From the IMG/VR virus record IMGVR_UViG_2639762987_000002: a stretch of DNA of 64,000 nt. One strand, written 5' to 3'. A program made the position numbers and the translations under genes. Source of the stretch: a virus. Lineage: Duplodnaviria; Heunggongvirae; Uroviricota; Caudoviricetes. The notes beneath the pieces were generated by a model. It did not search any database, was not told the DNA's origin, and saw nothing but the letters and a program-made list of their open reading frames with translations. Positions 33,223 to 56,166 of the stretch are shown piece by piece; position 1 is the stretch's first letter, and the number at the start of each line of letters is the position of its first letter.

Positions 33223-36200
33223 TTGGACATGGAACAGTTCAAGAAGAAAAAATTACCGCTTCTTATTGCCGGTGCTGGTGGCAAGAAAAGTAAAAGCTCC
33301 AGCCGTACCCCGGTTGAAGCTGATGATACTGTCAATTCTCGTGCTATGGCAGCCATCCTCGACCTTCTTGGCGAGGGGGTTATCGGTGGCCTGGTAAATG
33401 GCGCAAAGTCGATCTTCATCGACGATTTACCGATCTTGAATGAAGATGGCTCTTCCAACTTCAGCGGTATTACATGGGATTTTCGTGACGGCTCACAAGA
33501 CCAGACGCCAATGGCTGGTTTTGATTTTGTTGAAACGCCTAAGTCCGTAAATATTCAGCTTAAAAAAACACACGACGTTACGGTTTCAATCGATAACGAT
33601 GAAGCTGATCGCGTTCGTGTCATCATGAAATTCCCCTCTTTACGTAGCGTTGATAAAAGCTCTGGCGATACAAATGGCACTACGGTGAAGTACAAATTCC
33701 AGATCGCCAACGCAGACGCAACATTTTCTGATGTAGTGGCAGAAGGTGAGAAAAGCGTTGATATCACGCTAACGGCAAAGAAAACAGGCGTGTATTACCG
33801 TAGCTATGAGCTGAAACTACCTAAGCCTGGTCGTGCATACAAGGTTAGGGTGATTCGTCTTACGGATGATAACAGTAGCCAGTACCTCTACAACGATACC
33901 TGGGTTGATTCCATCGGTGAGATTGTAGATACCCCCATGAACTACCCTAACTCTGCACTTGTTGGCTTAAAGGTCAATTCAGAGCAGTTTGGTAGCACAA
34001 TGCCTTCCCGTTCGTATTTGGTGCGCGGTATCAAAATTCGAGTGCCGTCAAACTACAACGAATACACCAATACTTATGTCGGCGTATGGGACGGTACTTT
34101 TAAGCTGTTGTCTTCTTCAAACCCTGCGTGGATTCTCTACGATTTGCTTACCAATACTCGGTATGGTCTTGGGCAATTTGTGTCGGAGTCCATGATTGAC
34201 CTCGGCCAGCTCTACCAGATTGGTCGATATTGTGACGAAGAGGTCGATGATGGCTTTGGGGGTAAAGAGAAACGCTTTGCAATCAATACGCAGATCACCA
34301 GTCGACAGGACGCATACCGATTAATTCAGGATATTGCCGGTGCATTCCGCGGCATGGTGTTTTGGGCTGGTGGCATGGTTAACATCATGCAGGATAGCCC
34401 ATCAGATCCGGTAATGATGTTTACCAACTCCAACGTCAAAGATGGACTGTTTACCTATAAAGGTTCTGCGCGTAAAGATCGCCCATCCGTTGCGCTCGTG
34501 ACCTACAACAACAAGGAGGACGGTTATAAGCAAAACATCGAGTACGTTGAAGATCAGGACGCAATGCGCCGTTATGGTGAGCGTAAAACAGAAGTCGTAG
34601 CATTTGGATGTACAAGCCGAGGCCAGGCCCACCGAGTTGGTTTGTGGCTTTTGTATACCGCCAGAATGGAGTCGGATGTAATTACATTTACTGCCGGCTT
34701 AGACGCCTCATTTCTGATGCCCGGTGAAACCGTTCTGATTCAGAACAAATATCGTGCAGGTAAACGTAACTCCGGTCGAATTGTGGAGTTTACCAAAAAC
34801 AGCATCACTCTCGATGCGCCTGTGTCGTTAGCTAAAAGCGGCAGCTTTATTCGGATATTGAATCAGGAAGGCAAAATCGTTGAACGCGATGTTCTTGAAA
34901 CTGGCGAAAACATAACAAAGGTTACGTTTTCAAAAGCCCTGTCGTCAGCGGAAACGCCTGTTTTGAACGGTGTCTGGACAATTACAGAACCAGATCTTGA
35001 ACCTATGCGCGTTCGCATCGTTAACATCGCGCAGGGGGAAACGCCGGGTAGCTTTGACATCACCGCTGTTGAGAACAATCCGTCTAAATATGAGGCAATC
35101 GACAATGGTGCAACGCTTATCCCGCAGAATACGACGGTATTGGACCCGACTTACTCCAAGCCGTCTAATTTGCAAATCACTGAAGGGACTTACCTCTCAA
35201 GCCCGGGCAACCTGTCAGTAAAACTGACTGCAACATGGGAAGGGAAATCTCCAGAGTATTGGATCAGTTGGCGACGTTCTGATGAAAACAATGTATCGAA
35301 CTGGCAATCGGCGCGTGTAACCGAAGAACAATACGAAATCGTTAATGTCGCGGAGAATGGACGCTACGACTTCCAACTGTATGCGGTTTCATTCAACGGT
35401 AAAAAAACAGAAATTATCAGTACCGTTTATCAGGTGCTGGGAACAATGACACCGCCGGATGCACCAACGTCATTAACGGCCGTTGGAGACTATCGTAATG
35501 TGATACTGAATTGGGTTAATCCAGATTCGGTAGACCTTGATCACATTAATGTTTACGCATCCCAGACCAACAATCTGGATACGGCGAAACTGATCGCAGA
35601 GTCTGCAAGCACCACCTTTACACATGCTGGTCTTGGGGATAGCGAAACGTGGTATTACTGGGTTCGAGCATCGAACAAGCGAGGTATGTTAAGCCCTCCG
35701 AACTCAAACTTGGGTACAGAGGCGACAACTCGCGATGTACTGTCGTTCCTGGCTGGCAAAATTACATCTTCCGAGCTTGGTCAGGCTCTGCTTGAGGACA
35801 TCAACAGCAAAGCCTCTCAAGAAGCAGTTGACGAGTTAAATGAGCATATCAACCAGAGCGTCGAATCTTTGGAGGGGTCGGTAAACGACGTTAAGGAAGA
35901 TATAGCTGAATTAGATAAGCAGTTCAGCGATAACCTCGCGGGTTTTGAAATAAAATTCAACGAGCGTAGCGATGCTTTGGAGAACGCACAAACCGAGCTT
36001 AAAGGTGAGGTTTCGGCAACGATCGACAAGGTCAATGAAGCGTTTGAAAAAATTGATGCTACTGATGCTGCAATTGTTGAAATCGAAAACACCGTATCTG
36101 AACACGATAAAGCTCTCGCTAATACAGTCGAGGCAATAAAGGCTGCAAGAGACGAAGCGGCGGCTCTTATTGCTAAGGAAAGCGAGGCTCGTGTTGAAGG

Positions 36201-37953
36201 TGATGCCGCAAACGCTAAACAACTGGAAGTGTTGCAGTCGACGGTAGAGGAAAGTTCCGCAGCCGTTGAAGAAATGAAAAAGACGGTTGCAGAGGTCGAT
36301 CGTGCCAGTGCAGAACTGACTACGAACATTGAGGCGTTAGCTAAAACAAATATTGACCTGGCTCTTCGTCAAGATGAAGACCAGCACAAGCAGATGGTCA
36401 ATAACGCGAAGATCGCAACAACACAGAAAACCTTTGCTGATGATATGTCTGCAATGGCCACGAAGGTTGAGGAAATTCGCGTAGAAATTGGCGAAGACAT
36501 TAAGGCCAGTATTCTGGAAGAGTCCACCGCTCGTGCCGATGGCGATGAAGCGTTGGCAAAGCGTGTCACTCAGCTGCAATCTAAGTTTGAAGGAGATATC
36601 AGCGCGGCGATTAGTACAGAACAGGAGGCTCGTACATCTGCCGATGAAGCTTTGACGAAACAAATAACTCAGCTTGAGTCGAAAGTAAGCAACGATATTG
36701 TCGCAGCCATTAAGGAAGAGCAAGAAGCCCGAGCAACGGAAGATTCGGCTCTGGCAAGCCAGATCACCCAACTTCAGGCAAAAGTTGATGATGATATTTC
36801 TGCTGCAATACGCAGTGAGCAGGAGGCGCGTGCGAGCGGAGACTCTGCGTTAGCTAAACAAATAAACCAGCTTCAAGCAAAGGTTGACGGTGATATATCC
36901 GCTGCCATCACTCAGGAGCAGGAGGCCAGAGCAAGTGCTGACCAGGCGCTCTCACGAGAAATTAACAGCCTGCGAGCACAAACCGGAACTGATATTGCCG
37001 CAGCGGTTGCTGTAGAGACAAAGGCAAGGACTGATGCCGATAGTGCATTGTCCACTCAGATTTCGTCTCTTACAGCAAAAGCTAATGATCTCGAGGCATC
37101 TCTTGCCAGAGAAACAACGGCTCGTGCTGATGGTGATACCGCTTTAACAAAAGAGGTTTCAAGTTTAAAAGCACAGACAGCGAAAGATATTAGTGCGGCC
37201 GTTGCAGTTGAAACGCAGGCTCGAACTGATGCTGACTCGGCGTTGTCGTCTCAGATCACCAAGCTGACCTCTCAATACAAAGAGGATATTAAAGCGGCTG
37301 TAGCAACCGAAACGAAAACGCGTACAGAGCAAGATGCTGCATTGGCGACTCAAATCACAAACTTAGAGTCTCAAACGGCAGCCAACATTTCCGCGGCGGT
37401 AACAACTGAAACGACAGCGAGAACGCAGGCAGATAATGCTCTGAGTGGGCGAATCGATACTCTGAAAGCAGAGGTGGATGGAAATACCGCGACAATTCAA
37501 CAGCAGGCAACAGCTATTGCTAATACCAACAAAAAAGTGTCAACCGCGTGGACGTTGAAAATGGAAACTTCAACGAGCGGAGGGCAGAAGTATGTTGCTG
37601 GTATTGCGCTTGGTATCGACACCACTGGCCTTTCTCAGTTTTTGGTGCAGGCTGACAGGTTTGGTTTGGTCAACTCTGTTAACGGGAAGATCACCACGCC
37701 ATTTGTTATCGAAAACAGTATCGCCTATATGAATGGTGCGTATATCAAGGATGGCACAATCACCAATGCAAAAGTAGGCGATCTGCAATCTACCAATTTT
37801 GTTAGCGGTAGATCTGGATGGCGGTTCGGCAAAAATGGAACGCTTGAGATCAACGGTAATAGCGGGGGTAATGGGCGACTGGTCATAAATGGTCAGCGGA
37901 TTGACGTTTATGACGATAACAACGTCTTACGAGTAAGAATTGGCCTTCTGTGA
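33223..37953 (+). CDS. central tail fibre / host specificity protein, lambda J-like (1576 aa)
   Basis: Blocks AFGCTSRGQAHRVGLWL, NPAWILYDLLTNTRYG and KYVAGIALGIDTTGLSQFLV match lambda J from memory; contains ~10 tandem 33-aa coiled-coil repeats. Confidence 0.85.
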   Translation: MDMEQFKKKKLPLLIAGAGGKKSKSSSRTPVEADDTVNSRAMAAILDLLGEGVIGGLVNGAKSIFIDDLPILNEDGSSNFSGITWDFRDGSQDQTPMAGFDFVETPKSVNIQLKKTHDVTVSIDNDEADRVRVIMKFPSLRSVDKSSGDTNGTTVKYKFQIANADATFSDVVAEGEKSVDITLTAKKTGVYYRSYELKLPKPGRAYKVRVIRLTDDNSSQYLYNDTWVDSIGEIVDTPMNYPNSALVGLKVNSEQFGSTMPSRSYLVRGIKIRVPSNYNEYTNTYVGVWDGTFKLLSSSNPAWILYDLLTNTRYGLGQFVSESMIDLGQLYQIGRYCDEEVDDGFGGKEKRFAINTQITSRQDAYRLIQDIAGAFRGMVFWAGGMVNIMQDSPSDPVMMFTNSNVKDGLFTYKGSARKDRPSVALVTYNNKEDGYKQNIEYVEDQDAMRRYGERKTEVVAFGCTSRGQAHRVGLWLLYTARMESDVITFTAGLDASFLMPGETVLIQNKYRAGKRNSGRIVEFTKNSITLDAPVSLAKSGSFIRILNQEGKIVERDVLETGENITKVTFSKALSSAETPVLNGVWTITEPDLEPMRVRIVNIAQGETPGSFDITAVENNPSKYEAIDNGATLIPQNTTVLDPTYSKPSNLQITEGTYLSSPGNLSVKLTATWEGKSPEYWISWRRSDENNVSNWQSARVTEEQYEIVNVAENGRYDFQLYAVSFNGKKTEIISTVYQVLGTMTPPDAPTSLTAVGDYRNVILNWVNPDSVDLDHINVYASQTNNLDTAKLIAESASTTFTHAGLGDSETWYYWVRASNKRGMLSPPNSNLGTEATTRDVLSFLAGKITSSELGQALLEDINSKASQEAVDELNEHINQSVESLEGSVNDVKEDIAELDKQFSDNLAGFEIKFNERSDALENAQTELKGEVSATIDKVNEAFEKIDATDAAIVEIENTVSEHDKALANTVEAIKAARDEAAALIAKESEARVEGDAANAKQLEVLQSTVEESSAAVEEMKKTVAEVDRASAELTTNIEALAKTNIDLALRQDEDQHKQMVNNAKIATTQKTFADDMSAMATKVEEIRVEIGEDIKASILEESTARADGDEALAKRVTQLQSKFEGDISAAISTEQEARTSADEALTKQITQLESKVSNDIVAAIKEEQEARATEDSALASQITQLQAKVDDDISAAIRSEQEARASGDSALAKQINQLQAKVDGDISAAITQEQEARASADQALSREINSLRAQTGTDIAAAVAVETKARTDADSALSTQISSLTAKANDLEASLARETTARADGDTALTKEVSSLKAQTAKDISAAVAVETQARTDADSALSSQITKLTSQYKEDIKAAVATETKTRTEQDAALATQITNLESQTAANISAAVTTETTARTQADNALSGRIDTLKAEVDGNTATIQQQATAIANTNKKVSTAWTLKMETSTSGGQKYVAGIALGIDTTGLSQFLVQADRFGLVNSVNGKITTPFVIENSIAYMNGAYIKDGTITNAKVGDLQSTNFVSGRSGWRFGKNGTLEINGNSGGNGRLVINGQRIDVYDDNNVLRVRIGLL

Positions 37954-38046: not shown

Positions 38047-41000
38047 ATGTGGTACAGGGAAGGTACTATCACATTTACACAGGGCAGCAATACTCTGGTT
38101 GGGGCAGGTACAGCCTGGAACGTAACAGCTAATGGTGTGTTGCCGGGGATGATCGTCATTGGCCCCGACAATAAGCTGTATGAGATCAAGCGCGTAACCA
38201 GTGATACGAACATTGTTCTCTCAGAACCTTATACCGGCGAAACTCAGTCTGAAGTTCCGTGCCGAATCATTACGACCTATGAAGGCGACTTAACACAGTT
38301 TAGCGCGCGCTTTACAGCACTAATGTCGCGTATGTCGGCTGATTCCAAGTCCATGCGCAGTTGGTTGACTGCTCTGGATGAGGTGACAATCGAGCGTGAA
38401 GACGGTACAGAAGTGACCGTTAAGCCGCTAATGCAGATCGTCAACGAGCACAACGAAAACGTTGAGTGGTATAAAAATAACACTGACGCGATTGATGCTG
38501 CTGGCGACAAAGCTCGTGAGGCGGCGGCCAGTGCTGCCGCAGCAGCAAAAAGCGCCAATGCCGCTGGAGAAAAAGCCTCTCAAGCGTCTCAAAGTGCATC
38601 CGCTGCGGCATCCTCACAAAGTGCCGCAAGTGCGAGTGCAACTGCTGCGAAAAAATCTGAAACGAATGCTGCAGCGTCACAAAAATCTGCAGCCACTTCT
38701 GCATCCACCGCGACCACGAAGGCGTCAGAAGCTGCCACCTCAGCCCGGGATGCGGCGGCCTCAAAAGAGGCAGCAAAATCATCAGAAACGAGCGCAGCCT
38801 CGAGCGCCAGTAATGCCGCTTCCTCGGCAACGGCGGCTGGAAATTCCGCGAAGGCGGCAAAAACGTCCGAGACGAACGCCAGGTCTTCTGAAACGGCAGC
38901 GGGACAGAGCGCCTCGGCTGCGGCAGGCTCAAAAACAGCGGCTGCGTCGTCTGCCAGTGCCGCGTCAACAAGTGCCGGGCAGGCCTCAGCCAGTGCCACC
39001 GCCGCCGGAAAATCGGCAGAAAGTGCCGCATCGTCTGCTTCAACGGCCACAACGAAGGCTGGCGAAGCCACTGAACAGGCCAGCGCAGCAGCGAGGTCTG
39101 CTTCCGCAGCGAAGACATCCGAAACGAACGCGAAAGCGTCGGAAACCCGTGCAGAATCCTCAAAAACGGCAGCCGCATCGTCCGCCAGTTCGGCAGCGTC
39201 ATCGGCATCATCTGCGTCTGCTTCAAAAGATGAGGCGACCAGACAGGCGTCAGCAGCGAAGGGCAGCGCCACGACGGCATCCACGAAAGCAACAGAGGCG
39301 GCAGGCAGTGCGACGGCTGCATCTCAGAGCAAAACTGCTGCCGAATCTGCTGCGACTCGTGCAGAAGCTGCCGCTGATCGTGCTGAAGAGATTGCCGGTG
39401 CAGTTGCGATGGAAGACGCAAGCCTTACAACTAAAGGTGTTGTGAAACTTAGCAGTGCTGTCGATAGCACCAGTGAATCGCTGGCTGCAACGCCAAAGGC
39501 AGTTAAAACTGTTAAAGATAGTTCAGTTCAAAAAACTGGCGACACAATGGGAGGGCAGTTAAAAATCGGCACGATAAATGCTCTTCGAATATTCAACCAA
39601 GCCTTTGGCCTTATTTTTAGGCGTTCCGAAGATTATATTCATCTTATCCCGACTAATGAAGGGGAGGGAGAAAATGGAGACATCGGTTCATTAAGACCAT
39701 TCTCTATAAACTTAAGATCAGGGTTGGTGTCCATCGGTAATGGACTAAAAGTTGGTGGTAGTGTTACTGGTAATTTGACCGGAAACGCAGATACTGCGAC
39801 CAAGATCAAGACAGCACGTAAGATTGGGGGCGTGGCATTTGATGGATCGGCAGATATCAACTTGCCTGGAGTCAACGCTACCGGTAATCAAAACACTACA
39901 GGTAATGCTGCGACCGCCACGAAACTTCAGGCAGCCAGAACGATTAACGGTGTGTCATTTGATGGTAGTGCAAATATCACATTGACCCCTTCAAATATTG
40001 GGGCGTTGGCATTAACTGGAGGGACTCTTTCAGGTGGTTTAACTGCTGCTGGTGAGATTATTTCAAAGTCAGCAAATGGTCTGCGTATTGCCTATGGCAA
40101 CTATGGATTCTTTATCCGAAATGATGGCTCAAATACATATTTTATGTTGACAGATTCGGGTAACAGTCTTGGTACGTACAATAGCTTAAGGCCGTTTATA
40201 ATTAGTAACTCTACTGGCAATGTTACAATTGCAACTAAATTAAACGCGAGTAGTGGTATCACTGGATCTTTATCGGGTAATGCAAGCACAGCAACCAAAT
40301 TGCAGACAGCAAGAACCATCGGTGGTGTTAGCTTCGATGGCACTGCGAATATTAATTTGCCTGGTGTTAATGCTGCCGGTAATCAGAACACTACCGGTAA
40401 CGCGGCCACAGCGACCAAGTTGCAAACAGCTAGAACTATTAACGGGGTGTCGTTTAACGGCTCTGCGAATATTTCAATACCAACAATTACGTCCAGAGGG
40501 CGCGTTACTGCGCTCACCGGTACAACACAAGGTGCTGCGACTGGATTGCAGATGTACGAGGCATATAACAATGGCTACCCTTCGTCTTACGGGAATGTGC
40601 TTCATCTTAAGGGCGCAACGGCCGTTGGTGAAGGTGAGTTGTTCATAGGTTGGAGCGGTACAAGTGGTGCTCATGCACCTGTACATGTACGTTCGCGACG
40701 AGATACGGATACATCCAGTTGGTCTGAATGGGCGCAAGTTTATACGTCCAAAGACTCAATTCCAGGTGTCAATGCCACCGGTAATCAGAACACTACTGGC
40801 AACGCAGCCTCTGCAACGAAGTTGCAGACAGCCAGAACAATTGGAGGTGTGTCGTTTAATGGCACCGCCAATATTAACTTGCCGGGTGTTAATATAGCGG
40901 GTAATCAGAATACGACTGGTAACGCAGCTTCAGCCACGAAGTTACAAACGGCTCGTACTATCGGTGGTGTTAGTTTTAACGGCACAGCCAATATTAACTT

Positions 41001-41571
41001 ACCTGGTGTGAATACGACCGGTAATCAGAACACTACTGGTAATGCTGCAACCGCCACAAAATTGCAGACAGCAAGGAAAATTGCTGGTGTGGCGTTTGAT
41101 GGCTCTGCCGATATAACTTTGACTGCGGCTAACCTTAATGCTTATACGAAAACAGAGGTAACAAACCTTCTCAGTTCCTATGTGAAGAGTAGTTCTCTTC
41201 CAAGCATGACTGTGCGAACTTCCTCTGTTTCTGGTGGGGATATGGGCATGAGTTTGTCCACATTCATTAGCCACCTTAAATCAAATGGGGCATTTAGCAA
41301 AAGTTATTGGATTGGCTTTGGCGATGCTATGGGATTCAATGCTGGCAGTATCAACAATATAACGGGATTTGGTGCTGTAGAATTAGCAGAATCTATAATC
41401 GAAGTTTTTAATCTACCTAACGGTGATTATACAATTCGTTTAACAACGTCACATAAAGCTGACTACGGTGGAGTGACAAACGCAATCCTCGTTTATCACT
41501 ACCGTAGTAATAGAAGTCCGTCAGGTCAATGGCTGAAATTTGCCGGTACTGTTGGGGCAACAAGCAACTGA
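38047..41571 (+). CDS. side tail fibre protein (1174 aa)
   Basis: Ala/Ser-rich low-complexity segment with KTSETNA repeats, then ~7 copies of GNQNTTGNAATATKLQTARTIGGVSFDG phage tail-fibre repeats. Confidence 0.8.
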   Translation: MWYREGTITFTQGSNTLVGAGTAWNVTANGVLPGMIVIGPDNKLYEIKRVTSDTNIVLSEPYTGETQSEVPCRIITTYEGDLTQFSARFTALMSRMSADSKSMRSWLTALDEVTIEREDGTEVTVKPLMQIVNEHNENVEWYKNNTDAIDAAGDKAREAAASAAAAAKSANAAGEKASQASQSASAAASSQSAASASATAAKKSETNAAASQKSAATSASTATTKASEAATSARDAAASKEAAKSSETSAASSASNAASSATAAGNSAKAAKTSETNARSSETAAGQSASAAAGSKTAAASSASAASTSAGQASASATAAGKSAESAASSASTATTKAGEATEQASAAARSASAAKTSETNAKASETRAESSKTAAASSASSAASSASSASASKDEATRQASAAKGSATTASTKATEAAGSATAASQSKTAAESAATRAEAAADRAEEIAGAVAMEDASLTTKGVVKLSSAVDSTSESLAATPKAVKTVKDSSVQKTGDTMGGQLKIGTINALRIFNQAFGLIFRRSEDYIHLIPTNEGEGENGDIGSLRPFSINLRSGLVSIGNGLKVGGSVTGNLTGNADTATKIKTARKIGGVAFDGSADINLPGVNATGNQNTTGNAATATKLQAARTINGVSFDGSANITLTPSNIGALALTGGTLSGGLTAAGEIISKSANGLRIAYGNYGFFIRNDGSNTYFMLTDSGNSLGTYNSLRPFIISNSTGNVTIATKLNASSGITGSLSGNASTATKLQTARTIGGVSFDGTANINLPGVNAAGNQNTTGNAATATKLQTARTINGVSFNGSANISIPTITSRGRVTALTGTTQGAATGLQMYEAYNNGYPSSYGNVLHLKGATAVGEGELFIGWSGTSGAHAPVHVRSRRDTDTSSWSEWAQVYTSKDSIPGVNATGNQNTTGNAASATKLQTARTIGGVSFNGTANINLPGVNIAGNQNTTGNAASATKLQTARTIGGVSFNGTANINLPGVNTTGNQNTTGNAATATKLQTARKIAGVAFDGSADITLTAANLNAYTKTEVTNLLSSYVKSSSLPSMTVRTSSVSGGDMGMSLSTFISHLKSNGAFSKSYWIGFGDAMGFNAGSINNITGFGAVELAESIIEVFNLPNGDYTIRLTTSHKADYGGVTNAILVYHYRSNRSPSGQWLKFAGTVGATSN

Positions 41572-41661: not shown

Positions 41662-41916
41662 ATGAGCTATGGTGCACAGGTTTGGTCGCCATCAAGACAG
41701 GAGATGGTCGATGCGTTGGCCCCTGTTTATTACCTCGATTATTTTACTCCCTCTGGTTCAGGAAGTAGAACATATGAGGTTGAGGCGGGATTGGGAATCG
41801 ACTATTACATAATGGACGTAACCAATGGAAAATACACAAGTCTTACGGTTTCTGGAAATACCATTTCGTGGTCTGGAGCTAGTGGCAATTTAAACATATT
41901 GGTTTTTCAAAAATAA
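41662..41916 (+). CDS. hypothetical protein (84 aa)
   Basis: ORF downstream of tail fibre. Confidence 0.45.
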   Translation: MSYGAQVWSPSRQEMVDALAPVYYLDYFTPSGSGSRTYEVEAGLGIDYYIMDVTNGKYTSLTVSGNTISWSGASGNLNILVFQK

Positions 41917-42524
41917 TGTACGGAAGCAAGATATATCGATCTGACGGGAAGGTCTGGATGTCTCCTTCTTTGTCTCCTATCGTTTTTCAGAGAAAGCAGG
42001 TTGTTTCTTTGTCTGGCGGGACAGAGTTTAACACCCAAATATCTCCAGATCGTTCACCGATGATTTTTGTTGCCTATTCGAAAGCTGTTTCATTAATAGC
42101 CAACAGAATAGTGCGTAATAACCAGGTGATTTACAGTTTCGGAGGTCAGGGTAGCGACTCTAGTGCCACGATATACGTATTTTCGAAAGGTATAGCCAAA
42201 AAAGAAACTTGGGGCATGAGTTTTTTCAATGCGCGAGGAGAGGAGATCTATAATACGGCAAATATCCCACTTTCATTTACCTTTCTTAATAATACGGAGT
42301 GGAACAGTTCTGGAGGGCATGTTTTTGATTACCCGCCAGCGATAATCCCAACATATGCAAATGTGTTCGCGGTTCCAGTACCGGGCGGGGCCATGACAAT
42401 GGTTTATGGATATGCGGCATATGGAAATACTGTTAGTTCCATATTCGTAAACCAACTTAATGGCGGCCATAGTTTTAGCGTAAATGGCAGAGTACCGGTA
42501 ATAAATAGAAATCTGTATAACTGA
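41916..42524 (+). CDS. hypothetical protein, possible tail-fibre accessory (202 aa)
   Basis: ORF; no similarity to lambda Tfa recognised. Confidence 0.45.
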   Translation: MYGSKIYRSDGKVWMSPSLSPIVFQRKQVVSLSGGTEFNTQISPDRSPMIFVAYSKAVSLIANRIVRNNQVIYSFGGQGSDSSATIYVFSKGIAKKETWGMSFFNARGEEIYNTANIPLSFTFLNNTEWNSSGGHVFDYPPAIIPTYANVFAVPVPGGAMTMVYGYAAYGNTVSSIFVNQLNGGHSFSVNGRVPVINRNLYN

Positions 42525-55615: not shown

Positions 55616-55690
55616 GATGGTGTAGCTCAGCGGTAGAGCAGTTGGCTGTTAACCAACTGGTCGGTGGTTCGAATCCACCCACCATCGCCA
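55616..55690 (+). tRNA. tRNA-Asn (anticodon GTT)
   Basis: Hand-folded cloverleaf: acceptor gatggtg/caccatc, anticodon loop ctGTTaa, T-loop ttcgaat, encoded CCA. Confidence 0.85.
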
Positions 55691-55695
55691 ATTTA

Positions 55696-55782
55696 GGGGA
55701 GTTAGTCCGTAGAGGTAGCGGTGTAGACTGTAAATCTACTGTCATGGCGACTCGGGTGGTTCGACTCCATCACTCCCCACCA
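55696..55782 (+). tRNA. tRNA-Tyr (anticodon GTA), long variable arm
   Basis: Acceptor ggggagt/actcccc, anticodon stem-loop gtaga-ctGTAaa-tctac, 87 nt, encoded CCA. Confidence 0.8.
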
Positions 55783-55786
55783 AATT

Positions 55787-55862
55787 GCCGGTTTAGCTCA
55801 GTTGGTAGAGCGCCTGCCTTGTAAGCAGGATGTCAGCGGTTCGAGTCCGTTAACCGGCACCA
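55787..55862 (+). tRNA. tRNA-Thr (anticodon TGT)
   Basis: Acceptor gccggtt/aaccggc, D-arm gctcagttggtagagc, anticodon loop ctTGTaa, encoded CCA. Confidence 0.85.
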
Positions 55863-56079
55863 ACACAACAGGAAAGAGCATTGAAAACCGCCGAGACTGC
55901 CCTGTTTTAAGCGTAAGTCCGTGCAAACGTCATACAGTGCTCTTTTCGTTGTGGTTGATGCGCAGACTGATGCGCGGAAAGAAATGCCCCAGCGACACAC
56001 GAGGCGAGTTCACACACTGCAATGCAGTCAGTAGCCGGGGTCGCTAAGCCGGAGATCAGTACCGGTAACCACAACAATT

Positions 56080-56166
56080 GGAGAGTAGGGAGCATGGTGC
56101 TCAAGCGGTCTTGAAAACCGTCCCATTGTGCAAACGATGATGGTTCGATTCCATTACTCTCCGCCA
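56080..56166 (+). tRNA. tRNA-Ser (anticodon TGA), long variable arm
   Basis: Acceptor ggagagt/actctcc, anticodon loop ctTGAaa, 87 nt, encoded CCA. Confidence 0.8.

What the first reader, a model, noticed from the sequence alone, without database searches (positions are those of the whole stretch)
33223..37953. Lambda J-like central fibre with a ~330-aa tandem coiled-coil insertion and a shortened C-terminus
The N-terminal two-thirds align to lambda J by conserved blocks, but between them sits an array of about ten 33-aa heptad-like repeats (~36480-37470). The protein ends about 110 aa after the SQFLV block, lacking most of the lambda receptor-binding domain. This suggests an extended fibre shaft with receptor binding delegated to the adjacent side tail fibre.
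Basis: partly seen in the sequence, partly recalled or inferred. Interest (0 to 1): 0.5.

Follow-up and report, generated by a model that had tools for sequence, protein, structure and literature searches.

The report
Long-shaft J-like phage central fibre
This is the central tail-tip fibre protein of an SSU5-like phage-plasmid of E. coli: lambda's short helical neck is expanded into a roughly 85-nm helical shaft built partly from ten 33-residue repeats, an architecture already known from phage T1 and F-type pyocins, so it is a good example rather than a new kind of thing.

Summary
ORF 33229-37953 (+) encodes a 1574-aa lambda-J-like central fibre protein. Residues 20-858 align with lambda J 3-835 and residues 1419-1507 with lambda J 841-931. 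About 560 aa (859-1418) lie between these, more than the 330 aa reported. The last 329 aa of that stretch are ten 33-aa repeats (nt 36496-37482).

Three corrections:
- The periodicity is hendecad-like (3.65 residues), not heptad.
- The insert expands lambda's own alpha-helical shaft.
- The C-terminus is not truncated. It has a full-length Phage_Tail_Tip beta-prism domain and an ending shared with T1 gp33, DEV gp56, the SU10 tip fibre and the F2-pyocin central fibre. It does lack lambda's receptor-binding domain.

Each repeat carries, twice and in opposite orientation, the SxSxxMxxLxS motif reported in 2026 for the F7-pyocin central fibre, whose coiled coil refolds into a beta-prism. Close relatives differ by whole repeat units (5-11 profile hits, against 11 in this protein).

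The side fibre's N-terminus weakly matches the F2-pyocin side-fibre domain that docks on the shaft. The shaft has an invariant acidic kink.

Verdict: a new member of a known kind, of moderate-to-low interest. The fold switch is inferred, not shown.

The parts
33229..37953 (+). CDS of the J-like central fibre / tail-tip protein (1574 aa plus stop). An in-frame TTG at 33223 is the mechanical ORF start.
   Evidence: 99% identical to P0121 (E. coli 'phage tail protein'). 94% nt identity to the Escherichia phage Cyrano gene 'tail host specificity protein J'.
33286..35802 (+). Hub domains plus FNIII domains, aa 20-858, collinear with lambda J 3-835. Pfam FNIII-A_GpJ at aa 101-235, Phage-tail_3 at 357-520, fn3 at 744-823.
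   Evidence: BLASTP 32% identity, E 8e-119. Pfam. PDB sequence hits to the F2-pyocin central fibre, T1 gp33 and lambda gpJ.
35728..37443 (+). Predicted alpha-helical shaft, aa 834-1405. About 85 nm if fully helical at 0.148 nm per residue.
   Evidence: AF2 models: helix at aa 834-1044 and 1051-1259 (mean pLDDT 69.7, shallow MSA) and at aa 1256-1405 (pLDDT ~95). No proline in 859-1418. Length arithmetic.
35803..37482 (+). Segment with no counterpart in lambda J (aa 859-1418, ~560 aa). It lies between lambda J residues 835 and 841, inside lambda's own alpha-helical shaft.
   Evidence: Lambda domain names from PMC11101478.
36058..36252 (+). Two degenerate repeat-like units (aa ~944-1008). Each has a reverse and a forward motif pair at the same 15-aa spacing (947/962 and 979/994).
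   Evidence: The repeat HMM also hits aa 979-1007 weakly (13.9 bits).
36331..36390 (+). Invariant acidic kink 'EALAKTNIDLALRQDEDQHK' (aa 1035-1054), within a conserved island at aa ~1010-1090. Candidate docking site for the side fibre (inferred).
   Evidence: 98-99% conserved among 16 relatives whose flanking shaft is 24-70% conserved. AF2 helix break at aa 1045-1050, pLDDT below 50 at 1039-1051. Analogy with the acidic kink of the F2/F7 pyocin shafts.
36496..37482 (+). Array of ten 33-aa repeats (aa 1090-1418; unit 7 is 32 aa). Consensus DISAAIxxETxARTxADxALxxQITxLxAKxxx. Invariant residues A4, E9, R13, D17, A19, L20, L27.
   Evidence: Motif SxLxxMxxSxS at position 4 and SxSxxMxxLxS at position 19 in 10 of 10 units. 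Copy number varies among relatives.
37492..37896 (+). Beta-prism 'central straight fibre' domain, Pfam PF09327 Phage_Tail_Tip (aa 1422-1556). Homologous to lambda J ~841-971.
   Evidence: Pfam E 2.3e-41, profile positions 1-138 of 139. PDB hits 8xcj, 8iyk, 9wca. AF2 all-beta from aa ~1408. Foldseek hits to 7z4b_EA and 8xcj/8xci.
37732..37950 (+). C-terminal ending (aa 1502-1574, '...GWRFGKNGTLEINGNSGGNGRLVINGQRIDVYDDNNVLRVRIGLL'). Shared with T1 gp33, DEV gp56, the SU10 tip fibre and the F2-pyocin central fibre. Replaces lambda's receptor-binding domain.
   Evidence: Alignments reach T1 gp33 residue 1167 of 1172, DEV gp56 426 of 429, and SU10 320 of 322. 92-99% conserved among relatives (89% over the part present in a truncated database entry) even where the shaft is 60-70% identical.
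38047..41571 (+). Side tail fibre (1174 aa), context. N-terminal domain aa 2-107 (nt 38050-38367) resembles the F2-pyocin side-fibre N-terminus. Ala/Ser-rich shaft like lambda Stf. T4 gp34 trimerisation domain at aa 617-719. Mu S-like tip.

Best explanation
What it is. The gene encodes the trimeric central fibre / tail-tip protein (lambda gpJ homologue) of an SSU5-like siphovirus phage-plasmid of E. coli. It belongs to the long-shaft class represented by T1 gp33 and the F-type pyocin central fibres.

Shown here:
- The domain order is hub, FNIII, alpha-helical shaft, beta-prism (PF09327), then a T1-type C-terminal ending with no lambda receptor-binding domain.
- The shaft is lambda's ~35-aa helical shaft expanded to ~570 aa.
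- Its distal 329 aa are ten 33-aa (three-hendecad) repeats.
- Relatives differ by whole repeat units.

Inferred:
1. Three chains form a parallel coiled coil about 85 nm long. The invariant E9-R13-D17 of each repeat form buried salt bridges, as described for F7 pyocin.
2. Each 33-aa unit holds one reverse and one forward copy of SxSxxMxxLxS. On this reading each unit is one beta-hairpin of a latent triangular beta-prism.
3. When the distal end engages the cell surface, the beta-prism that starts at aa ~1408 would seed conversion of the coiled coil into beta-prism, as seen in F7 pyocin. The array would shorten from about 49 nm to about 10 nm. That would pull the tail tip to the membrane, free the FNIII plug and release the tape measure protein and DNA.
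4. The side fibre encoded next door would dock by its N-terminal OB-like domain on the invariant acidic kink of the shaft (aa ~1035-1054). It would supply primary host recognition.
For: Family and context:
- Gene order M-L-K-I-J-fibre.
- BLASTP to lambda J, Pfam and PDB sequence hits.
- The F2-pyocin central fibre aligns over aa 1269-1546, E 3.7e-25. T1 gp33 contains the same kind of 33-aa units and the same ending.

Helical shaft:
- AF2 helix at aa 834-1044, 1051-1259 and 1256-1405.
- Hydrophobic periodicity of 3.65 residues and no proline.
- Register-preserving indels of 7, 11 and 25 aa, and of 33, 65, 66, 99 and 131 aa.

Fold-switch motif:
- 10 of 10 units carry the reverse motif at position 4 and the forward motif at position 19. 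In total there are 14 forward and 11 reverse matches, against about 2.4 each in shuffles (maxima 8 and 9).
- Composition at S positions is 73% Ala, 13% Ser, 13% Thr. L positions are 100% L/I/V. M positions are 50% Glu and 50% I/V. R13 sits at i+4 from the M-position Glu.
- The preprint reports 68% Ala, 11% Ser and 7% Thr at S positions, and describes the Glu-Arg i+4 pair (10.64898/2026.01.28.702463).
- Beta structure starts directly after the array, matching the proposed 'seed'.
- Lambda itself converts residues 841-861 of its shaft from helix to beta on LamB binding (PMC11101478). Those residues align with aa 1419-1440 here.

Side-fibre docking:
- Conserved acidic helix break.
- The side fibre's N-terminus matches the F2-pyocin side fibre at residues 3-104 (E 4e-4) and 3-74 (profile, E 1.7e-4).
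- In the pyocins the side fibre docks on an acidic kink of the shaft.
Against: - No trimer prediction or experiment was possible. AF2 on the monomer gives only the helical state, so the beta-prism state is untested for this protein.
- The fold switch has been shown experimentally only for F7 pyocin, in a preprint. For phages it is AlphaFold-based.
- The motif counts are not independent, because the ten units are copies of one another.
- The array is twice the length of the 163-residue F7 segment. Whether all of it would switch is unknown.
- The match between the side-fibre N-terminus and PyoF13 is weak (about 24 bits).
- The F2 kink (residues 953-956) would align nearer aa ~1311-1314, in the 32-aa unit, than to aa 1045. 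That part of the alignment is of low confidence.
- No PyoF11/12-like, DEV gp54/55-like or T1-type small receptor-binding gene is recognisable next to J.
- The C-terminal domain is nearly invariant among relatives. That fits an adaptor role or a conserved receptor equally well.
Confidence: 0.55

Rival explanations
1. Static spacer. The coiled coil is only a rigid or flexible extension that sets the reach of the distal tip and side fibres through O-antigen or capsule. Repeat copy number tunes the length. Tail opening is triggered as in lambda or T5, without large-scale refolding of the shaft.
For: - Whole-unit and register-preserving indels among close relatives show that length is the freely varying property.
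- AF2 gives a confident helix.
- The 33-aa unit also occurs in many proteins with neither the J N-terminus nor this C-terminus: 93 of the top 147 representatives. That suggests a general fibre-shaft building block.
Against: - Invariant small residues (A4, A12, A19) lie outside the a/d/e/h core positions assigned here (an inference, not computed). Their strictly alternating motif orientation is not needed for a plain coiled coil, and it matches the published dual-fold pattern.
- Even lambda refolds part of the homologous shaft.
Confidence: 0.3
2. The distal beta-prism and C-terminal ending are themselves the receptor binder, for example for the LPS core, which is the reported receptor of SSU5. 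The side fibre is then an accessory for reversible adsorption, so receptor binding is not delegated.
For: - SSU5 is reported to use LPS core oligosaccharide (PMC4138488, citing Kim et al. 2014).
- No separate small receptor-binding gene is recognisable next to J.
- The C-terminal domain is 92-99% conserved, as expected for a conserved receptor such as the LPS core.
Against: - In DEV and the F-pyocins, which share this ending, it is reported or predicted to recruit separate receptor-binding proteins. A similar arrangement is proposed for Drexlerviridae.
- The SSU5 J gene matches this one at DNA level only over ~240 nt, so the SSU5 receptor data may not transfer.
Confidence: 0.3
3. The gene is a truncated or decaying lambda-type J that lost its receptor-binding domain, in a defective element.
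For: Lambda residues ~972-1132 have no counterpart.
Against: - The Phage_Tail_Tip match is full length, and the ending is shared to the last residues with T1, DEV, SU10 and F2-pyocin proteins.
- The same ending is conserved in the 120 listed close relatives, whose clusters hold thousands of member sequences, and in plaque-forming phages such as Cyrano.
- tblastn finds the repeat-plus-C-terminus module in 1712 phage records.
Confidence: 0.02

Closest known systems
F-type pyocin central fibre proteins: F7 CFP (PDB 9YG8-9YGD, bioRxiv 10.64898/2026.01.28.702463) and F2 PyoF10 (PDB 25vf, PMC13455828)
   Same: - Lambda-like hub and FNIII domains, then a long trimeric alpha-helical shaft, then a beta-prism, with no lambda-type receptor-binding domain.
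- Sequence homology over aa 1269-1546 (E 3.7e-25).
- The SxSxxMxxLxS motif in alternating orientation, with Glu/Arg i+4 pairs.
- An acidic kink in the shaft.
- A side fibre whose N-terminus resembles PyoF13.
   Different: - The shaft here is ~570 aa, against 163 aa in F7.
- It includes a regular ten-unit 33-aa array with copy-number polymorphism.
- This is a DNA-containing phage-plasmid, not a tailocin.
- No PyoF11/F12-like genes follow J.
- The side fibre is a 1174-aa mosaic (lambda Stf-like, T4 gp34-like and Mu S-like parts) rather than a 363-aa R-pyocin-like fibre.
Phage T1 central fibre protein gp33 (PDB 9l9p_S; PMC11945409) and the gpJ-like proteins of Drexlerviridae
   Same: - Collinear over the hub (E 1.3e-133).
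- Contains the same kind of 33-aa units ('DIQASLTDIREVIATETEALSREIDQLKAQIGD').
- Has the same C-terminal ending to within 5 residues of the end.
- The C-terminal part is long, flexible and unresolved by cryo-EM. AlphaFold3 predicts it to protrude ~37 nm.
   Different: - T1 gp33 is 1172 aa with only a few units, against ten (plus degenerate ones) here.
- Drexlerviridae are proposed to carry a small receptor-binding protein gene next to gpJ (as summarised in PMC12892993). None is recognisable here.
Lambda gpJ (PDB 8iyk, 8xcj, 8xci; PMC11101478)
   Same: - Gene position after M, L, K, I.
- 32% identity over 839 aa.
- FNIII domains, an alpha-helical shaft and a beta-prism central straight fibre.
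- Part of lambda's shaft (residues 841-861) also turns from helix to beta on receptor binding.
   Different: - Lambda's shaft is ~35 aa.
- Lambda has the C-terminal Ig-like domain that binds LamB, which is absent here.
- The NCBIfam lambda_TipJ score is 529 bits against a cut-off of 1950.
Pseudomonas podophage DEV gp56 (PDB 9ze4_N; PMC12892993) and the SU10 tail tip fibre (7z4b_EA)
   Same: - Share the repeat-type helix (DEV 142-251 aligns with aa 1082-1191) and the C-terminal ending.
- DEV gp56 is a structural adaptor that recruits the true receptor-binding protein.
   Different: - They are short fibres of podoviruses with no J hub.
- DEV has gp55 and gp54 encoded downstream as partners.

Membership tests
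Lambda gpJ-type tail tip / central fibre protein | N-terminal hub domains homologous to gpJ | tested here: met
   BLASTP 32% identity over aa 20-858, E 8e-119. Pfam FNIII-A_GpJ and Phage-tail_3. phrog_31 'central tail fiber J'.
Lambda gpJ-type tail tip / central fibre protein | Position in the tail gene block after the M, L, K and I homologues | tested here: met
   30727 Phage_min_tail (M), 31112 Phage_tail_L, 31809 JAB plus NlpC/P60 (K-like), 32621 phrog_32 tail assembly protein (I-like). Same order is annotated in Cyrano.
Lambda gpJ-type tail tip / central fibre protein | Beta-prism central straight fibre domain (PF09327) | tested here: met
   E 2.3e-41, full-length profile match. Foldseek hits to 8xcj/8xci.
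Lambda gpJ-type tail tip / central fibre protein | C-terminal Ig-like receptor-binding domain (lambda residues ~999-1132) | tested here: not met
   No alignment beyond lambda residue 971. Only ~20-28 aa remain after that point, and they follow the T1-type ending.
Lambda gpJ-type tail tip / central fibre protein | NCBIfam lambda_TipJ (NF049904) curated cut-off | tested here: not met
   529 bits against a cut-off of 1950. So it is a homologue, not an equivalent of lambda J.
Long-shaft, fold-switching central fibre proteins (F7/F2 pyocin, T1 type) | Long alpha-helical coiled coil between FNIII-2 and the beta-prism | tested here: met
   AF2 helix at aa 834-1405 with one break. Periodicity 3.65, no proline. 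Register-preserving indels. The trimeric state itself could not be modelled.
Long-shaft, fold-switching central fibre proteins (F7/F2 pyocin, T1 type) | Sequence homology of the C-terminal region to a pyocin or T1 central fibre | tested here: met
   F2 pyocin E 3.7e-25 and T1 gp33 E 2.8e-30 for the C-terminal 717 aa.
Long-shaft, fold-switching central fibre proteins (F7/F2 pyocin, T1 type) | SxSxxMxxLxS motif in alternating orientation, with acidic M positions paired with Arg at i+/-4 | tested here: met
   Both orientations present in 10 of 10 units. Composition at S, L and M positions matches the published values. E9/R13 are invariant. Motif definition.
Long-shaft, fold-switching central fibre proteins (F7/F2 pyocin, T1 type) | Non-switching beta-prism strands directly after the coiled coil (the 'seed') | tested here: met
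   AF2 strands begin at aa ~1408, right after unit 10.
Long-shaft, fold-switching central fibre proteins (F7/F2 pyocin, T1 type) | Actual coiled-coil to beta-prism conversion on cell contact | not testable with these tools
   Only monomer AF2 was available and it gave the helical state. This needs trimer modelling or cryo-EM.
Long-shaft, fold-switching central fibre proteins (F7/F2 pyocin, T1 type) | Side fibres docked on an acidic kink of the shaft through an N-terminal OB-like domain | tested here: inconclusive
   Invariant acidic helix break at aa 1035-1054. Side-fibre N-terminus matches PyoF13 residues 3-104 at E 4e-4 (single sequence) and 1.7e-4 (profile). The match is weak and there is no structural test.
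Long-shaft, fold-switching central fibre proteins (F7/F2 pyocin, T1 type) | Separate small receptor-binding proteins encoded next to the central fibre gene (PyoF11/F12, DEV gp54/55, Drexlerviridae RBP) | tested here: inconclusive
   The next gene is the 1174-aa fibre. Two uncharacterised ORFs (84 and 202 aa) follow it, with no Pfam or PDB match.

The most novel reading that the evidence does not exclude
The ten-unit array may be a modular, length-tunable conformational spring. On this reading each 33-aa unit is three hendecads of trimeric coiled coil before infection and one beta-hairpin layer of a triangular prism after it. The whole 49-nm array would collapse to about 10 nm. That is two to three times the stroke of the F7-pyocin segment. 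Natural copy-number variants (5-11 profile hits in close relatives, about 20 or more in other proteins) would tune stroke and stored energy, for example to the thickness of the host's surface layer. The side fibres, docked on the shaft's acidic kink, would act as the latch that must release first.
Probability: 0.35. Interest if true: 0.6.

Novelty: new member of a known kind. Interest (0 to 1): 0.35.

Why it matters
Non-contractile tails have no sheath to supply force, and how they breach the outer membrane is still debated. A 2026 preprint proposes that a coiled coil in the central fibre stores that energy and releases it by refolding into a beta-prism.

This protein, and the family of copy-number variants around it, offers a regular natural series for testing the idea: one hairpin per 33-aa unit, with 5-11 profile hits per protein. 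The hosts are E. coli phage-plasmids that can be induced and engineered.

There are also practical uses.
- For annotation: a J homologue without lambda's receptor-binding domain is complete, not truncated.
- For host range: specificity in these elements should be sought in the side fibre or in tip-bound partners, not in the J C-terminus.

Tried and rejected
- Tandem Repeats Finder on the DNA found only a 12-nt micro-repeat. The units are only ~51% identical at nucleotide level, so the array had to be defined at protein level.
- The first homologue search, with the last 320 aa, returned only fragments under 560 aa. It was useful as an MSA but not for copy number. The full-length search was needed for that.
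- AF2 on the monomer with a 103-sequence MSA gave only the helical state. It cannot test the beta-prism state.
- The second AF2 job (aa 820-1260) had a shallow MSA and modest confidence (mean pLDDT 69.7). I used it only for helix continuity and for the break.
Only four hits were significant, from SU10 and lambda gpJ.
- The lambda Stf N-terminus shows no similarity to this side fibre's N-terminus. Only the Ala/Ser-rich shaft is shared, so a Ur-lambda-type collar attachment has no support.
- A possible link between the tRNA cluster (Asn, Tyr, Thr, Ser) and codon use in J or the fibre showed no clear signal.
- The 'truncated J' reading was rejected.
- The 'heptad' reading was rejected.
- No paper was found that describes the 33-residue or hendecad unit in central fibres. 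Absence from that library is not proof.

Full report
**What is at the coordinates**

The + strand ORF at 33223-37953 is real. The probable start is the ATG at 33229, which has an AAGGA about 11 nt upstream. The same start is annotated in Escherichia phage Cyrano. It gives a protein of 1574 aa.

At DNA level the gene is 94-95% identical over its full length to two records: Cyrano's 'tail host specificity protein J' and 'Escherichia phage CMS-2020a'. More distant records match only the first 56% of the gene (PhiR41_1 and Klebsiella phage-plasmids). SSU5 matches only ~240 nt.

The surrounding genes are, in order:
- tape measure protein;
- M homologue;
- L homologue;
- K-like protein with JAB plus NlpC/P60 domains;
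- I-like protein;
- this gene;
- a 1174-aa side fibre;
- lysis genes, and then (in the Cyrano annotation) plasmid partition genes.

The window is therefore an SSU5-like phage-plasmid of E. coli, and the gene is its gpJ homologue.

**Checking the observation**

BLASTP against lambda J gives two collinear blocks:
- aa 20-858 with lambda 3-835 (32% identity, E 8e-119);
- aa 1419-1507 with lambda 841-931 (33% identity).

phmmer extends the second block to about lambda residue 971. About 560 aa (859-1418) therefore occupy the place of five lambda residues. This segment has no proline, is 18.6% Ala and has 1.2% aromatic residues.

Its last 329 aa (aa 1090-1418, nt 36496-37482) are ten tandem units, nine of 33 aa and one of 32 aa.
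- Mean pairwise identity is 48%.
- Seven positions are invariant: A4, E9, R13, D17, A19, L20, L27.
- At DNA level the units are 51% identical on average, against 26% for in-frame controls. They are old, diverged copies kept similar at protein level, which is why Tandem Repeats Finder missed them.

Three points need correcting.

1. The insertion is ~560 aa, not ~330.
2. The hydrophobic periodicity peaks at 3.65 residues, close to 11/3. The peak power is 109, against a maximum of 73 in shuffles, and there is nothing at 3.50. The units are three hendecads, not heptads.
3. The C-terminus is not a shortened lambda end.
   - The Pfam Phage_Tail_Tip (PF09327) match covers profile positions 1-138 of 139.
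   - The last ~70 aa align to the final residues of T1 gp33 (to 1167 of 1172), Pseudomonas phage DEV gp56 (426 of 429), the SU10 tip fibre (320 of 322) and the F2-pyocin central fibre.
   - Lambda's receptor-binding domain is indeed absent.

**What the shaft is**

In lambda, gpJ runs hub, FNIII-1, FNIII-2, a short alpha-helical shaft, a beta-prism 'central straight fibre', then the receptor-binding domain (PMC11101478). The extra 560 aa here fall inside that helical shaft.

AF2 models of the monomer:

| Region modelled | MSA | Confidence | Result |
|---|---|---|---|
| aa 1255-1574 | 103 sequences | mean pLDDT 86.8; helix ~95 | one unbroken helix at aa 1256-1405, all-beta from aa ~1408 |
| aa 820-1260 | 16 sequences (shallow) | mean pLDDT 69.7 | helix at aa 834-1044 and 1051-1259, one break at 1045-1050 |

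If fully helical, aa 834-1405 would span about 85 nm (arithmetic).

Comparison with relatives gives independent support for a register-constrained coiled coil. The 120 closest database proteins are E. coli, Shigella and Escherichia marmotae phage-plasmid J proteins of 1353-1575 aa. The repeat profile finds 5, 6, 7, 8, 9 or 11 units in them, and 11 in this protein, where the eleventh is a weak degenerate hit at aa 979-1007. Their indels relative to this protein fall into two groups:
- inside the array: 33, 65, 66, 99 and 131 aa, which are all whole units;
- in the proximal shaft: 7, 11 and 25 aa, which are one heptad, one hendecad, and two heptads plus a hendecad.

**How widespread it is**

A profile of the 33-aa unit finds 2034 representative proteins at E <= 1e-3 among 1.84 billion. 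Some have 20-31 matched stretches. The top 147 break down as follows:

| J N-terminus | This C-terminus | Proteins |
|---|---|---|
| yes | yes | 12 (up to 21 units in a 2138-aa protein) |
| no | yes | 24 |
| yes | no | 18 |
| no | no | 93 |

tblastn of the array plus the C-terminus hits 1712 phage records. They include T1-like phages of E. coli and Klebsiella, lambdoid mEp213 and mEp237, and the podovirus LIT1. The ten-unit array is therefore mid-range for a common fibre building block, not an outlier. Neither Pfam nor NCBIfam has a model covering the shaft.

**Link to recent literature**

Two 2026 papers describe the same architecture in F-type pyocins.

The F2-pyocin central fibre (PyoF10) has a markedly longer central straight fibre region than lambda, including an extended alpha-helical shaft. 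[quoted passage not shown] Three side-fibre trimers dock on a negatively charged kink of the shaft through an N-terminal OB domain and a basic stem (PMC13455828).

For F7 pyocin, a preprint reports the following (10.64898/2026.01.28.702463):
- A 163-residue trimeric coiled coil converts into a triangular beta-prism on cell contact.
- This opens the tip and ejects the tape measure protein.
- Mutants that destabilise the prism assemble but do not kill.
- 21 of 24 phage homologues are predicted to adopt both folds.
- Each prism strand carries SxSxxMxxLxS, with its direction following the strand orientation.
- Acidic M positions pair with Arg at i+/-4.

I tested that motif here.
- All ten units have the reverse form at position 4 (A-x-[ILV]-x-x-E-x-x-A-x-[TAS]) and the forward form at position 19 (A-x-[AST]-x-x-[IV]-x-x-L-x-[AS]).
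- In total there are 14 forward and 11 reverse matches in the array. Shuffles give about 2.4 each, with maxima of 8 and 9.
- Two further reverse/forward pairs with the same 15-aa spacing lie upstream, at 947/962 and 979/994.
- S positions are 73% Ala, 13% Ser and 13% Thr. The published values are 68%, 11% and 7%.
- L positions are all L/I/V. M positions are half Glu and half I/V.
- R13 lies at i+4 from the M-position E9 and is invariant, as is D17.

On this reading, one 33-aa unit is three hendecads of coiled coil or one beta-hairpin of prism. The non-switching beta 'seed' the authors describe corresponds to the beta structure that begins right after unit 10.

Lambda itself turns residues 841-861 of its shaft from helix to sheet on LamB binding. 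Those residues align with aa 1419-1440 here.

The caveats are real.
- The units are copies of each other, so the counts are not independent.
- The switch has been demonstrated only for F7 pyocin.
- My monomer AF2 runs show only the helical state.

**Receptor binding and the side fibre**

Among relatives, the C-terminal 156 aa stay 92-99% identical (89% over the part present in one truncated database entry) even where the shaft is only 60-70% identical. That is not how a host-range-determining tip usually behaves.

In studied proteins with the same ending, a separate protein binds the receptor.
- DEV gp56 recruits gp55 and gp54, and gp54 binds LptD (PMC12892993).
- PyoF11 and PyoF12 are predicted to sit on the pyocin fibre tip.
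- Drexlerviridae are proposed to encode a small receptor-binding protein next to gpJ (as summarised).

Here the next gene is the 1174-aa side fibre, which is a mosaic:
- an Ala/Ser-rich shaft 54-72% identical to lambda Stf;
- a T4 gp34 trimerisation domain;
- a Mu S-like tip.

Its N-terminal ~105 aa has one significant solved-structure match, the F2-pyocin side fibre. That match covers residues 3-104 at E 4e-4 with the single sequence, and residues 3-74 at E 1.7e-4 with a 13-sequence profile. This is the part of the pyocin fibre that docks on the shaft.

The shaft of J also has a conserved island at aa ~1010-1090. It peaks at 98-99% conservation over 'EALAKTNIDLALRQDEDQHK' (aa 1035-1054), while the flanking shaft is 24-70% conserved. 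The peak coincides with the only predicted helix break and with the lowest pLDDT.

By analogy, this acidic kink is my candidate docking site. The evidence is suggestive, not decisive. The low-confidence alignment to F2 would place the pyocin kink nearer the 32-aa unit 7.

Whether the J tip also binds a receptor remains open. SSU5 is reported to use the LPS core (PMC4138488).

**Verdict**

The protein is a new member of a known kind, the long-shaft J-like central fibres of the T1 and F-pyocin type. What is not spelled out in the papers I could read is:
- the regular 33-aa unit that maps one-to-one onto a reverse-plus-forward motif pair;
- its hendecad register;
- the whole-unit copy-number polymorphism among near-identical phage-plasmids.

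These make the family a convenient natural test series for the fold-switch model. They do not change the category. I score interest at 0.35.

Noticed in passing
window 41662-41916 and 41916-42524 (+): Two ORFs (84 aa, phrog_557 'outer membrane protein'; 202 aa, phrog_425 'membrane associated protein', moron) lie between the side-fibre gene and the lysis genes. In phage Cyrano the fibre gene is followed directly by the holin. Neither translation shows a signal peptide, a lipobox Cys or a hydrophobic stretch, and neither has a Pfam hit; the 84-aa ORF also has no PDB hit. The membrane labels look doubtful. They could be fibre-associated proteins (chaperone, adhesin or tip binder).
   Followed up: partly
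window 36331-36390 (J aa 1035-1054), within 36256-36495: An invariant acidic segment 'EALAKTNIDLALRQDEDQHK' lies in an otherwise variable coiled-coil shaft. It coincides with the only AF2 helix break. It is a candidate side-fibre docking kink by analogy with F2/F7 pyocins.
   Followed up: partly
window 38047-41571 (+): The side fibre is a four-way mosaic: a PyoF13-like N-terminal domain, a lambda Stf-like Ala/Ser-rich shaft (54-72% identity), a T4 gp34 trimerisation domain, and a Mu S-like tip. It is 1174 aa here and 1341 aa in Cyrano, so the distal part has been exchanged between close relatives.
   Followed up: partly
window 38441-39421 (-), 38462-39445 (+), 38589-39284 (-): ORFs of 231-327 aa, in an alternative + frame and on the opposite strand, lie inside the Ala/Ser-rich part of the fibre gene. 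They are most likely compositional artefacts of the low-complexity coding sequence, not genes.
   Followed up: no
window 55616-56166 (+): A cluster of four tRNA genes: Asn-GTT, Tyr-GTA, Thr-TGT and Ser-TGA. Thr and Ser are enriched in J and the fibre, but the share of the cognate ACA and TCA codons is not clearly higher there than in other genes.
   Followed up: partly
window 37090-37185 (J aa 1288-1319, repeat unit 7): This is the only unit of 32 rather than 33 aa. It starts 'LEASL' instead of 'DISAAI', which shifts the register by one residue in the middle of the array. AF2 still predicts a continuous helix. A low-confidence alignment places the F2-pyocin shaft kink near here.
   Followed up: no
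window 37732-37950 (J C-terminus): Among close relatives, the last four residues vary only at the penultimate position (IGLL, IGRL or IGQL), while the preceding ~150 aa are almost invariant.
   Followed up: no
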